A DNA stretch of 24,000 bases from Pseudomonadota bacterium (lineage in GTDB: Bacteria; Pseudomonadota; Gammaproteobacteria; Pseudomonadales; Porticoccaceae), in NCBI GenBank assembly GCA_034717695.1, contig JAYELS010000017.1, positions 1 through 24,000 on the forward strand, written 5' to 3'. Below, piece by piece: positions 3,840 to 6,658 of the stretch. Under the pieces are notes generated by a model, which was not told the origin of the DNA, ran no database searches, and saw only the letters and a list, made by a program, of their open reading frames with translations. Each line of letters starts with the position of its first letter. Position 1 is the first letter of the stretch. Made by a program: the position numbers and the translations under genes.

Positions 3840-6658
3840 GGCCGCACCCCCCCACAGGCCACCGCGCCCAGCTCCACCAGGGGCTCGTCGCTGTCCGGCA
3901 CCCGCAGGGTGAAGGGGCAGCGCTGGCCCCGCCAGCGGGCTTCCAGGCGGTTGACCGGTTCCAGGTCGGTGGCGAACACCTCCCCCCGCAGGCCCACCGG
4001 GAACAGGGTGCCATCGGTGGCGACCACCACGGCGCCGGTGGGGAGAGGATCGCCGTTGTCGAGCTCAAGGCGGAACAGGGCATTGCGGGAGCGGGTCACG
4101 GGGAATTCGAGGGTCACGCCGCTGCGGTGGTAGGGGGCGACATCACGCTCCAGGCCGCCGACATTGGCGTCGAGGGGCAGGTCCGCCTGATCGATGCGCA
4201 GGCGGTTGCGCTGGTAGGCCCGCAGGCGTGGCACCAGCGCAACGCCGTCGCCGTTGGTGCGCGCCACCGGCTGATTGTCGGCGTAGACCCGCACCCCCGG
4301 AAAGCCCGGCACCCGCACCACGGCAAAGCTGTCGTCGATGGCGCGGCTGGCGAACAGGCCGCCGAGCAGGGCGATTCCGCCCCGGGCATTGGCCCGGGTG
4401 GCGGTCTGGCCGTTGAAGCGGGAGCCCTCCAGGGACCAGCTGCCGCGATCGTTCTGGTAGGCGACGCTGGCCCGCTGCTGGTCGCTGTCGCCGCCGCTGG
4501 CCTCCAGGCTGTAGCCGAGGCCGGTGCCCACCGGCAGGCTGCGCTGCACCCGGGCGGTGGCGCCGCTGCCGCCGTCCCGGTGGGTGGCGGCGAGGCTGGC
4601 GGTGGTGCCTTCCCGGTCGAGGGGCAGGGTGAAGTGGGCGCGCAGGGTGGTTTCGTCGCTGTCGATGAAGTGCAGCGCCGACAGGCTCAGGTAGCCGACG
4701 TTGCCGACGCCGATGCTGTAGCCGAGGTTGATGAATTCCACGTCGTCCCGCTGGCGGTGGTTCTGGACGGTGTAGCCAAGGCTCAGGGCGCCCCGGCCAA
4801 TGCCCGAGACGCTGGCGTACAGCCGGCTCTGGTGGGCGGGGAGGGCATCCCCCGCCAGCATGCCGGCGCGGGCGAAGCCGGCGCTCGCCAGCTGGGTGTC
4901 GAAGCCGGCGCTAAAGTGCCTGCCCTGGCGCTGGGCGCCGAGGGCGAGCAGCTCGCCGCTCCCCGTATCCCCCTGGCTCGCGGCCAGGGATCCGTACAGT
5001 ACCGCACCGGCGGGCAGTAGCCAGGAGGCGCCGAGGCCCGCCATGGCCTGCTCCCCCGCGCCATCGCCGTCGTCGTCCTGGCCGAGCAGCTGGCCGTGTG
5101 CTTCCACCGTCAGGCGGTCGCTGATCCCGCCGCGCCAGGTGGCGGCGGCGAGGGGGCGGCCGTAGTCGAAGCTGGCGCGGCCGTAGTTCTCGCGGATCGC
5201 CCCCAGCTCCACCGCGTATTCCCTCAGACCCCCCCGGAGCAGCCGCTGGCTGGCGTAGAAATCCTGGGTGATCACCTGTTCGCGGCCGAGGATATCCCGC
5301 ACCACCAGGCGGGTCTGGCCCTGGCCGGTGACGGTGGGAATCTCGTCGATGGTGAAGGGCCCGGGCGGCACCTCCCGGCGCAGCCGCAGGGCGTCGTTGA
5401 CGTAGAGGTCGAGGGTGGAGGGCAGGGCCGCCTCGCCGCCCATGGAGAGCAGCGGCAGGGTGAGAAACTCCGGCTGGGTGCTGAAATTGGTGCCCCACTG
5501 GAGACCGCCGAAGCGGACGCCGCCGCTCCACCCGGTGCCCCTGTTGGTGGTATCGCCCACCACCAGGGTGCGCATGCGCTCCGGGTCGTCCCGCCGCCAC
5601 TGGGTATCGAGGCGCACCAGCTCCCGCTCCCGGCCGTCGGGGTCGCGGCGGGCGAGGAGGTTCGCCGTGCCGCTGCCCCAGCCATTGAAGACCCCCAGCT
5701 CGAACAGGCCCGCGGCACGGACCTCGCCGTCGTCCCCCCGGGTGGCGGACAGGTCGTAGTTGGCGAAGGCGCCGAGGGGGGAGGGGGCGAGGGGCAGCGG
5801 GTCGCGGCGGGGGCCGTCGAGGCGGGTGGCGCCGAACAGATTGGCGGGGGCATCCAGGTCGAGGGTGAGGCGGCGCGGGTCCAGCCGCGCCTCGACGCCC
5901 AGGGTGGACAGCGGGTGGAAGCGCTCGCCCCCGTGCTCCAGGGCCCCGCCCTGGGGCGGGTTGATGCGCCAGTTGCGCAAATCCTCCTCCCCCAGCAGCA
6001 CCTCGTCCGCGCCCCGGCGCAGGGCCAGCACCGTGGTGCGCTCCCGCTGGTTGTTGAGGCGGGCGTCGAGCCAGAGTTCCTCCAGTGCCGGAGCGGCGCC
6101 GGCACCCTCGCCGCCGTCGAGGACATTTTCGTCGTGGCGCGGCAGCGCCAGCGTCCGGGGCACGGCGCGGGCCGGGGCTGTCTGTACTGGCGCGGTCTGT
6201 GCCGGCGCGGTCGGGAACAGGTCCACCACCAGGCGATGGCCGAGGCCGTGGTCGGGCTGGAGGTTGAAGAGGTTGGCGGTGACAGGGCCGTTGAAGTGGA
6301 GGGTAAGGCGCGGGGCGGTGTCATCGCCGTCGACGGCGTGGCCGCGAATCAGCGCCCCGTCGGCGGGCAGGGCGCGGGCCAGGGCGCCGGCAAGGCTCTG
6401 GGCCGCGACATTGTCGAGCACCAGGCGCAGCTCCCTGTCGCCGGGGTTGGAGAGCACCCGAAACGGCAGGCTGGCGTCGGTTTCCAGCACCAGGCGCACC
6501 CGGTCCGGCCAGTGGCCGAGGCGCACCGCCCGCACCGCCTCGGGGCTCGCCATGGCGGCGGCGGGTGGCAGGATCAAGGCCAGAATCATCCCCAGTGCCA
6601 GGGCAGCCTTGCGCGACCCGCTAGTCCGACCGCAGGCGGGTGTGGAGCACCTTTCCAT
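3836..6658 (-). CDS. fimbrial outer-membrane usher with N-terminal AMIN domain
   Basis: 940-aa ORF with signal peptide RKAALALGMILALILPPAAAMA/SPEA. Residues ~40-150 resemble AMIN domains. A P/A/T-rich linker follows (PTAPAQTAPVQTAPARAVP), then a typical usher N-domain, beta-barrel and C-domains. The start at 6658 overlaps the chaperone 3' end by 38 nt, and an alternative ATG lies at 6589. Confidence 0.85.
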   Translation of the reverse strand: MERCSTPACGRTSGSRKAALALGMILALILPPAAAMASPEAVRAVRLGHWPDRVRLVLETDASLPFRVLSNPGDRELRLVLDNVAAQSLAGALARALPADGALIRGHAVDGDDTAPRLTLHFNGPVTANLFNLQPDHGLGHRLVVDLFPTAPAQTAPVQTAPARAVPRTLALPRHDENVLDGGEGAGAAPALEELWLDARLNNQRERTTVLALRRGADEVLLGEEDLRNWRINPPQGGALEHGGERFHPLSTLGVEARLDPRRLTLDLDAPANLFGATRLDGPRRDPLPLAPSPLGAFANYDLSATRGDDGEVRAAGLFELGVFNGWGSGTANLLARRDPDGRERELVRLDTQWRRDDPERMRTLVVGDTTNRGTGWSGGVRFGGLQWGTNFSTQPEFLTLPLLSMGGEAALPSTLDLYVNDALRLRREVPPGPFTIDEIPTVTGQGQTRLVVRDILGREQVITQDFYASQRLLRGGLREYAVELGAIRENYGRASFDYGRPLAAATWRGGISDRLTVEAHGQLLGQDDDGDGAGEQAMAGLGASWLLPAGAVLYGSLAASQGDTGSGELLALGAQRQGRHFSAGFDTQLASAGFARAGMLAGDALPAHQSRLYASVSGIGRGALSLGYTVQNHRQRDDVEFINLGYSIGVGNVGYLSLSALHFIDSDETTLRAHFTLPLDREGTTASLAATHRDGGSGATARVQRSLPVGTGLGYSLEASGGDSDQQRASVAYQNDRGSWSLEGSRFNGQTATRANARGGIALLGGLFASRAIDDSFAVVRVPGFPGVRVYADNQPVARTNGDGVALVPRLRAYQRNRLRIDQADLPLDANVGGLERDVAPYHRSGVTLEFPVTRSRNALFRLELDNGDPLPTGAVVVATDGTLFPVGLRGEVFATDLEPVNRLEARWRGQRCPFTLRVPDSDEPLVELGAVACGGVRP

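What the first reader, a model, noticed from the sequence alone, without database searches (positions are those of the whole stretch)
6100..6658. Fimbrial usher with an N-terminal AMIN domain and a Pro/Ala/Thr-rich linker
After the signal peptide, the usher's N-terminal extension reads VRAVRLGHWPDRVRLVLETDASLPFRVLSNPGDRELRLVLDNV...PRLTLHFNGPVTANLFNLQPDHGLGHRLVVDLFP. It tracks the AmiC/PilQ AMIN domain nearly position by position as I recall it (cf. E. coli AmiC [20 protein letters not shown]...LSNPERVVVDIEGV...[34 protein letters not shown]). A PTAPAQTAPVQTAPARAVP linker follows, and only then does the canonical usher N-domain begin (LWLDARLNNQ...).

AMIN domains are known from cell-wall amidases and type IV pilus secretins, where they bind peptidoglycan and direct localisation. 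I am not aware of them being described on chaperone-usher ushers.
Basis: partly seen in the sequence, partly recalled or inferred. Interest (0 to 1): 0.65.

Follow-up and report, generated by a model that had tools for sequence, protein, structure and literature searches.

The report
Pilus usher with peptidoglycan-binding AMIN domain
The outer-membrane pore that assembles a Csu-type adhesive pilus here carries an extra N-terminal AMIN domain, a module known to tether cell-wall amidases and type IV pilus secretins to peptidoglycan. This suggests that the pilus machine is anchored to, or positioned by, the cell wall.

Summary
Window 3836-6658 (-) encodes a 940-aa usher with this layout: signal peptide, a ~110-aa domain (aa ~40-151), a ~40-aa disordered Pro/Ala/Thr linker, then a complete usher (N-domain, barrel and plug, two C-domains).

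Pfam's AMIN model misses this sequence (18-19.5 bits, cut-off 20.5). Three stronger tests agree that it is AMIN:
- A profile of 44 usher N-domains hits the E. coli AmiC AMIN domain (4bin, residues 21-131) at E=1.2e-25.
- hhalign against AmiC-type AMINs gives 99.9% probability.
- The AlphaFold model (pLDDT 94) superposes on AmiC AMIN at TM 0.82.

The fusion is not unique. Of the 120 closest usher clusters, 47 carry one (30) or two (17) AMIN copies. Presence changed at least 3 times on the usher tree. All sit in the same SCPU-subunit/chaperone/usher/SCPU operon. Precomputed Pfam annotation flags only 13 of the 47.

No paper in the searchable library describes AMIN on an usher, and the founding AMIN paper does not list this architecture.

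The most likely function, inferred by analogy with PilQ and AmiC, is peptidoglycan tethering that localises and/or anchors the usher.

It is a new variant of a known kind, of moderate interest.

The parts
3836..6658 (-). Usher gene, 940 aa (stop codon 3836-3838). An alternative start at Met24 (6589) is also upstream of the AMIN domain.
   Evidence: ORF. Pfam Usher 3.8e-28 and PapC_C 1.8e-10. FimD by sequence at 2.3e-16. Full-length AF2 model matches FimD 3rfz_B at E=1.8e-39 over ~808 columns.
6551..6658 (-). Sec-type signal peptide (aa 1-36: MERCSTPACGRTSGSRK / AALALGMILALILPPAAAMA | SPEA). The ATG at 6658 lies 38 nt inside the 3' end of the chaperone gene.
   Evidence: Sequence. AF2 helix at aa 14-29. 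In L001 and L003 the longest ORF starts at the same 38-nt overlap and also supplies an Arg-rich n-region. The choice of start codon is inferred.
6206..6541 (-). AMIN domain (aa ~40-151; HMM envelope 42-149).
   Evidence: It has eight to nine strands plus one helix. Near-invariant positions across the family are R16, L54, L94, R103 and D107 of the domain.
6089..6205 (-). Disordered Pro/Ala/Thr-rich linker (aa ~152-190).
   Evidence: pLDDT is below 50 for aa 153-188 in the full-length model. Linker length across the family is 7-74 aa.
6172..6212 (.). 15-bp tandem repeat (2.7 copies) that encodes the TAPxQ repeats at the start of the linker.
   Evidence: TRF. Close relatives P0001 and P0002 have a shorter or different linker at this point.
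5843..6088 (-). Usher N-terminal (chaperone-subunit docking) domain, aa ~191-272. It starts at the conserved E-x-W-L motif.
   Evidence: AF2 strands at 192-269. Aligned to full-length FimD. E-x-W-L-x-V-x-x-N-x-Q consensus.
4343..5773 (-). Beta-barrel translocation domain with internal plug (aa ~296-772; plug ~406-470).
3839..4336 (-). C-terminal domains CTD1 and CTD2 (aa ~775-940).
   Evidence: PapC_C at aa 861-921. AF2.
6621..7364 (-). PapD-like periplasmic chaperone (247 aa).
   Evidence: PapD_N 7.7e-17.
7364..7897 (-). SCPU-domain pilus subunit (177 aa), first gene of the operon.
   Evidence: SCPU 1e-32.
3411..3839 (-). Second SCPU-domain subunit (142 aa). Its ATG overlaps the usher stop codon.
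   Evidence: SCPU 4.2e-30. Coordinates.

Best explanation
The gene encodes the usher of a four-gene archaic (sigma, Csu/CupE-type) chaperone-usher pilus operon. This usher has a sixth domain: an AMIN domain placed directly after the signal peptide. A ~40-residue disordered Pro/Ala/Thr tether joins it to the normal usher N-domain.

Shown here: the domain's identity, the architecture, its recurrence and its evolutionary lability.

Inferred mechanism: the protein is exported by Sec and the barrel is inserted in the outer membrane. The AMIN domain then hangs in the periplasm on its tether and binds peptidoglycan, as the AMIN domains of AmiC and PilQ do. This either captures the usher at septal or new-pole peptidoglycan, so that pili are assembled at defined sites, or fixes the assembly platform to the cell wall, or both. 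Gain, loss or duplication of the domain (0, 1 or 2 copies among close relatives) would tune this, as proposed for PilQ secretins.
For: Domain identity:
- AmiC 4bin at E=3.3e-4 from the single sequence and 1.2e-25 from the profile.
- hhalign 99.9%.
- AF2 pLDDT 93.9 and TM 0.82 to AmiC AMIN, with PilQ second.
- 22 of 44 family members hit Pfam AMIN at E<=0.01, best 1e-12.
- Of 135 non-usher proteins among the top 150 hits of the A1 profile (2,889 hits at E<=1e-3 in the 1.84-billion-protein library), 132 are Pfam AMIN and 37 carry Amidase_3.

Architecture:
- Signal helix, AMIN (pLDDT ~90), linker with pLDDT <50 at aa 153-188, then a full usher.
- FimD and PapC are the best structural matches.

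Translation:
- AMIN-less relatives have the signal peptide directly before the E-x-W-L motif. Here the only signal peptide lies upstream of AMIN.

Recurrence:
- 47 of 120 nearest usher clusters have 1 or 2 copies.
- Further long AMIN-ushers turn up among the 50%-identity representatives, all of the same usher clade, with core E<1e-170.
- The SCPU/PapD/usher/SCPU operon is the same in Acinetobacter schindleri, in a metagenomic contig and in three GTDB genomes.
- At least 3 presence/absence changes occur in 100 of 100 bootstrap trees.

Function, by analogy:
- PilQ AMIN domains pull down peptidoglycan and are required for mid-cell and polar recruitment (PMC5285504; PMC10653833).
- AMIN is recurrently fused to outer-membrane transport modules (PMC2572700). 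Here it was also seen on ShlB/POTRA and DUF1302 barrels.
Against: Peptidoglycan binding and localisation were not and cannot be tested here.

Pfam's own model does not reach threshold on this protein. The usher AMINs are very diverged among themselves (mean 30% identity, against 43% for amidase-type AMINs), so ligand specificity may have drifted.

Some members (the Aliidiomarina group) have only a ~7-residue linker between AMIN and the usher N-domain. That fits a free-swinging peptidoglycan tether less comfortably.

Close relatives function without the domain, so it is dispensable for pilus assembly as such.

In Neisseria and A. baylyi, AMIN-bearing PilQ does not give polar pili, so AMIN does not by itself predict polarity.
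Confidence: 0.6

Rival explanations
1. The AMIN domain is a pure mechanical anchor. It couples the usher to peptidoglycan so that tensile load on the spring-like archaic pilus passes to the cell wall rather than to the outer membrane. It carries no positional information.
For: An anchoring role against pilus forces was proposed for PilQ AMINs (PMC5285504). The tethered, independently folded domain is compatible with this. AMIN is found on many outer-membrane barrels with no obvious need for polarity, such as TonB receptors, ShlB and DUF1302.
Against: A single flexible ~40-residue disordered linker attached to the mobile N-domain, not to the barrel, is a poor load path. Closely related ushers lack the domain. 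Nothing here separates this role from localisation, and the two are not exclusive.
Confidence: 0.2
2. The AMIN fold has been co-opted for a role unrelated to peptidoglycan. Possible roles are binding chaperone-subunit complexes, usher dimerisation, or gating of the N-domain or plug.
For: The domain sits immediately upstream of the usher N-domain. In FimD the N-terminal tail of that domain contacts chaperone-subunit complexes (established knowledge). Some family members have only a ~7-aa linker. Usher AMINs are strongly diverged.
Against: The motifs shared with amidase AMINs are retained: T/D-R-x-R-L-V-L-E-T, F-x-L-x-P, and G-H-R-L-V-L-D-L-x-P. The linker is predicted to be disordered, and the prediction output reported no packing of the domain against the usher; PAE and contacts were not available, so this is weak evidence. 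Copy number varies between 0 and 2, as in PilQ.
Confidence: 0.12
3. The extension is an annotation artefact. The true start would be internal, so the AMIN-like stretch is not part of the usher.
For: NCBI's call for the 94%-identical MAG protein starts 23 codons later than the longest ORF (P0002), so the exact start is uncertain.
Against: Both candidate starts are upstream of AMIN. No signal peptide exists between AMIN and the usher N-domain. The domain is conserved as protein across 47 or more homologues with a confident fold.
Confidence: 0.02

Closest known systems
PilQ secretins of type IVa pili (P. aeruginosa, M. xanthus) with 1-3 N-terminal AMIN domains
   Same: Both are outer-membrane pilus conduits. 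One or more AMIN domains follow the signal peptide and are joined by flexible linkers. Copy number varies between relatives (0-3 in PilQ, 0-2 here). In PilQ, AMIN binds peptidoglycan and recruits the machine to septum and poles.
   Different: The conduit is unrelated: a monomeric 24-strand usher barrel of the chaperone-usher pathway, not a multimeric secretin. There is no pilotin, no inner-membrane partners and no retraction. The usher AMIN is closer in sequence to amidase AMINs than to PilQ AMINs (1.2e-25 against 9.8e-9).
E. coli AmiC (PDB 4bin) AMIN domain
   Same: This is the best sequence and structure match: full-length alignment, 26-28% identity, TM 0.82. The same strand motifs are present.
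   Different: AmiC is a soluble amidase exported by Tat (established knowledge). Here the domain is on a Sec-exported outer-membrane barrel with no catalytic partner.
Archaic (sigma) chaperone-usher systems: A. baumannii Csu and P. aeruginosa CupE
   Same: SCPU-domain subunits, a PapD-like chaperone, and an usher with N-domain, barrel, plug and C-domains.
   Different: This is a minimal four-gene operon. As far as the searched literature goes, the described ushers are not reported to carry an AMIN or any other peptidoglycan-binding domain. The CsuD and CupE5 sequences were not examined here.
AMIN-TonB-dependent transporters of cyanobacteria (bioRxiv 10.64898/2026.07.30.741596) and the other AMIN outer-membrane fusions of de Souza et al. 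2008
   Same: An AMIN domain sits between the signal peptide and the periplasmic N-terminal module of a monomeric outer-membrane barrel. Its function there is likewise only hypothesised.
   Different: The barrel family, the phylum (Gammaproteobacteria and relatives here) and the process (pilus export rather than import) all differ.

Membership tests
AMIN domain (Pfam PF11741) | Match to the Pfam HMM at or above the gathering score (20.5 bits) | tested here: not met
   Scores were 12.9 bits on the full protein, 18.3 on aa 1-186 and 19.5 on the isolated domain, with only ~26 residues aligned. Across the family, 22 of 44 domains match at E<=0.01 (best 1e-12). Thirteen homologues carry a precomputed PF11741 hit.
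AMIN domain (Pfam PF11741) | Homology to a structurally defined AMIN domain over its full length | tested here: met
   AmiC 4bin residues 21-131: E=3.3e-4 from the single sequence and 1.2e-25 from the profile. hhalign against amidase-type AMINs gives 99.9%, E=2.9e-33.
AMIN domain (Pfam PF11741) | AMIN fold (two four-stranded sheets) | tested here: met
   AF2 pLDDT 93.9 with 8-9 strands plus one helix. Foldseek top hit is AmiC at TMq 0.82 and rmsd 2.5 A, followed by PilQ AMIN.
AMIN domain (Pfam PF11741) | Periplasmic location directly after a signal peptide | tested here: met
   A hydrophobic signal sequence with an AMA|SP site precedes the domain. Homologues show the same layout. This comes from sequence inspection, not from a dedicated predictor.
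AMIN domain (Pfam PF11741) | Binds peptidoglycan and targets septal or polar wall | not testable with these tools
   Known only for AmiC and PilQ.
Chaperone-usher pathway usher (PF00577 / PF13953) | Usher barrel and PapC_C domains above Pfam cut-offs | tested here: met
   Usher 99.1 bits (cut-off 27.1). PapC_C 40.9 bits (cut-off 27).
Chaperone-usher pathway usher (PF00577 / PF13953) | Full five-domain usher fold (NTD, barrel, plug, CTD1, CTD2) | tested here: met
   AF2 pLDDT 81.8. Foldseek gives FimD 3rfz_B at E=1.8e-39 over ~808 columns, plus PapC complexes.
Chaperone-usher pathway usher (PF00577 / PF13953) | Encoded next to a PapD-like chaperone and pilus subunits | tested here: met
   PapD_N chaperone and two SCPU subunits are in the same strand and order. 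The gene junctions overlap by a few bases (ATGA type) at both subunit boundaries and by 38 nt at the chaperone-usher boundary.
Archaic / sigma (Csu, CupE-type) chaperone-usher class | Subunits of the SCPU (spore coat protein U) family | tested here: met
   SCPU at 1e-32 and 4.2e-30. Related loci have the same composition.
Secretin (PilQ) family | Secretin and N0/N1 domains | tested here: not met
   No secretin Pfam hit. The resemblance to PilQ is limited to the AMIN module.

The most novel reading that the evidence does not exclude
AMIN-ushers are a class of chaperone-usher machines that have not been studied experimentally. Their position on the cell (septum or new pole) would be set by recognition of peptidoglycan, so that some archaic pili are assembled at defined sites. 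Repeated gain, loss and duplication of the domain would then switch piliation pattern between close relatives, in parallel with PilQ.
Probability: 0.3. Interest if true: 0.65.

Novelty: new variant of a known kind. Interest (0 to 1): 0.5.

Why it matters
Ushers are textbook five-domain proteins, and chaperone-usher pili are generally treated as assembled without any link to the cell wall. A recurrent peptidoglycan-binding sixth domain would mean that some of these machines are positioned or anchored by the wall.

That gives a concrete handle on the little-studied question of where on the cell chaperone-usher pili are made. A delta-AMIN allele could be made in a culturable host such as Acinetobacter schindleri.

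It also extends the rule that AMIN is fused to outer-membrane conduits (secretins, TonB receptors, OEP) to a further, unrelated conduit.

There is a practical point too. The public Pfam model misses most of these domains, including those in the two named cultured species that were checked (A. schindleri and Aliidiomarina minuta), so the architecture is under-annotated.

Tried and rejected
- A word-indexed homologue search with the N-terminal 195 aa alone found only one near-identical fragment. The full-length search was needed.
A 10-sequence subset gave a narrow pattern and only 3 GTDB loci. That number is a lower bound, not a census.
- Look-up of the Aliidiomarina protein's contig failed.
- The AmiC structure paper (Rocaboy 2013) is not held, so residue-level peptidoglycan-binding determinants could not be compared.
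- The first AMIN-domain tree script timed out. The reduced version shows that 56 of 58 usher AMINs have another usher AMIN as nearest neighbour, but U-U identity (0.30) barely exceeds U-N (0.28). A single capture event is therefore plausible but not shown.
- Searches for 'AMIN' as a whole word mostly returned the author name Amin.
- Chance similarity and an untranslated extension were both considered and rejected (see rival explanations).
- A Tat signal like that of AmiC was considered. No twin-arginine motif is present.
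Full report
**What is there**

The finding's coordinates (6100-6658) correspond to aa 1-186.

Pfam finds Usher (3.8e-28) and PapC_C (1.8e-10). AMIN (PF11741) scores only 12.9-19.5 bits against a cut-off of 20.5, and only ~26 residues are matched.

**Is it AMIN?**

Yes, on four lines of evidence.
- The single domain sequence searched against all PDB sequences hits E. coli AmiC (4bin) residues 24-132 end to end, E=3.3e-4.
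- Iterative HMM searching was run over the usher homologues. From it, 56 non-redundant copies of the domain were collected and 44 of them aligned (A1).
  - This profile hits AmiC residues 21-131 at E=1.2e-25 and M. xanthus PilQ at 9.8e-9.
  - Of its members, 22 of 44 match Pfam AMIN at E<=0.01, best 1e-12.
  - hhalign against an alignment dominated by amidase-type AMINs gives 99.9%, E=2.9e-33, over 111 columns.
- AlphaFold2 on A1 gives pLDDT 93.9. Foldseek ranks AmiC 4bin first (TMq 0.82, rmsd 2.5 A, 26% identity), then PilQ AMIN domains.
- The A1 profile was run against 1.84 billion representatives. It finds 2,889 proteins at E<=1e-3. Of 135 non-usher proteins among the top 150, 132 are Pfam AMIN and 37 carry Amidase_3.

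**Architecture**

The full-length AlphaFold model (pLDDT 81.8) shows, in order:
- a signal helix at aa 14-29;
- the AMIN domain at aa 42-149 (pLDDT ~90);
- a linker with pLDDT <50 at aa 153-188;
- the usher N-domain at aa 192-270;
- the barrel with plug at aa ~296-770;
- two C-terminal domains.

Its best structural matches are FimD (3rfz_B, E=1.8e-39, ~808 columns) and PapC. AmiC is matched separately by the N-terminal domain. FimD is also found by sequence (2.3e-16).

The start of the linker is encoded by a 15-bp tandem repeat (6172-6212, 2.7 copies), and close relatives differ there.

**Is it translated?**

Two starts are possible, the ATG at 6658 and Met24 at 6589. Both lie upstream of AMIN.

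The ATG at 6658 lies 38 nt inside the chaperone gene and supplies a positively charged n-region. The same 38-nt overlap and an Arg-rich n-region are seen in two other genomes. I infer that this is the start.

AMIN-less relatives have their signal peptide immediately before the E-x-W-L motif of the usher N-domain. Here nothing resembling a signal peptide lies between AMIN and that motif. An internal start would therefore give a non-exportable usher.

**Context**

The operon is SCPU subunit (7364-7897), PapD-like chaperone (6621-7364), usher, then SCPU subunit (3411-3839), all on the minus strand. The gene junctions overlap by a few bases at the subunit boundaries and by 38 nt at the chaperone-usher boundary. 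This is an archaic, sigma-class, Csu/CupE-type system.

The same four genes flank AMIN-ushers in several other places:
- Acinetobacter schindleri (L004);
- a 168-kb metagenomic contig (L005);
- Gammaproteobacteria bacterium BRH_c0, a Wenzhouxiangella MAG and Pseudomarimonas arenosa.

**How common is it?**

Of the 120 best usher clusters, 47 carry a full domain: 30 have one copy and 17 have two. One further cluster is N-terminally truncated.

The median length before the usher N-domain is 50, 194 and 314 aa for 0, 1 and 2 copies respectively.

The representative library adds further long AMIN-ushers (P0122, P0125, P0127, P0136, P0198 and fragments). All have cores that match the window's usher at E<1e-170, so they belong to the same usher clade.

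On neighbour-joining trees of the usher core, AMIN presence needs at least 3 changes in 100 of 100 bootstrap replicates. Truly AMIN-less forms, with a signal peptide directly before the N-domain, nest among AMIN-bearing ones.

Only 13 of the 47 carry a precomputed PF11741 hit. The A. schindleri and Aliidiomarina proteins show none even at E<=0.01. Databases therefore display the fusion for a minority of members only.

**Literature**

The following searches returned nothing relevant:
- 'AMIN domain' with 'usher' (0 papers);
- 'AMIN domain' with 'fimbria' (the one candidate checked, a Burkholderia cenocepacia surface-proteome paper (PMC7565204), lists AMIN only on an amidase);
- PF11741 with PF00577 (0 papers);
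- 'usher' with 'peptidoglycan-binding' and 'archaic';
- whole-word 'AMIN' with 'Usher' and 'PapC'.

The founding AMIN paper lists ten architectures: three kinds of wall hydrolase (amidase, beta-lactamase and N-acetylglucosaminidase fusions), PilQ, STN+TPR, TonB receptor, OEP, TolA-like, TPR and solo. None is an usher (PMC2572700).

A 2026 preprint treats the AMIN-TonB-receptor fusion as a distinct class whose role is still untested.

**Mechanism**

Shown here: a folded AMIN homologue on a disordered tether at the periplasmic N-terminus of an otherwise standard usher.

Inferred: it binds peptidoglycan. PilQ AMIN domains co-sediment with peptidoglycan and are needed for mid-cell and polar recruitment in P. 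aeruginosa and M. xanthus. They were also proposed to anchor the secretin against pilus forces. AmiC's AMIN targets the septum (cited).

From general knowledge, a ~40-residue extended linker spans roughly 10-15 nm. Added to the N-domain, that is enough to reach the wall from the outer membrane.

I therefore favour peptidoglycan tethering that localises the usher, anchors it, or both. Confidence in the domain's identity is about 0.97. Confidence in peptidoglycan binding is about 0.7. Confidence in a localisation role is about 0.4.

Points against:
- The usher AMINs are highly diverged.
- One subgroup has only a ~7-aa linker.
- The domain is dispensable in close relatives.
- AMIN does not always predict polarity in PilQ.

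**Verdict**

This is not a one-off. It is a recurrent, evolutionarily labile and largely unannotated variant of archaic ushers, and it was not found described in the searchable literature. It is a new variant of a known kind, of moderate interest.

Noticed in passing
window 8396-9961 (+) and 2373-3224 (-); L004 6460-8778; L005 1-3137: c-di-GMP genes flank the pilus operon. In the window a divergent PAS_2-GAF-GGDEF protein (bacteriophytochrome-like N-terminus) lies upstream and an EAL protein lies downstream. CHASE-PAS-GGDEF or REC-EAL genes also sit next to the AMIN-usher operons of A. schindleri and a metagenomic contig. This suggests c-di-GMP (possibly light-responsive) control of these pili.
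   Followed up: partly
P0139 (875 aa) and P0138 (729 aa), from the representative search: AMIN domains are also fused to a ShlB/FhaC-type two-partner-secretion transporter (POTRA+ShlB) and to a DUF1302 outer-membrane barrel. Neither architecture is in the 2008 list of AMIN fusions.
   Followed up: no
window 6621-6658; L001 4883-4920; L003 4795-4832: In three distant genomes the longest usher ORF starts exactly 38 nt inside the 3' end of the chaperone gene. This hints at a conserved overlapping start and translational coupling.
   Followed up: partly
window 6172-6212: A 15-bp tandem repeat (2.7 copies) encodes the TAPxQ repeats of the linker. Near-identical relatives differ in linker length here, so the tether length may vary through repeat slippage.
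   Followed up: partly
P0068 (1040 aa usher homologue): It has a ~305-aa N-terminal extension before the usher N-domain that is neither AMIN nor any Pfam family. It may be another N-terminal add-on, or a mis-called start.
   Followed up: no
window 9965-10930 (+): A DUF6279 protein (8.4e-27) with a lipoprotein-like N-terminus is encoded next to the diguanylate cyclase. Its function is unknown.
   Followed up: no
P0038, P0039, P0043 (Aliidiomarina group): In these AMIN-ushers the domain is joined to the usher N-domain by only ~7 residues, against 33-74 in most others. This is not explained by a simple long-tether model.
   Followed up: no
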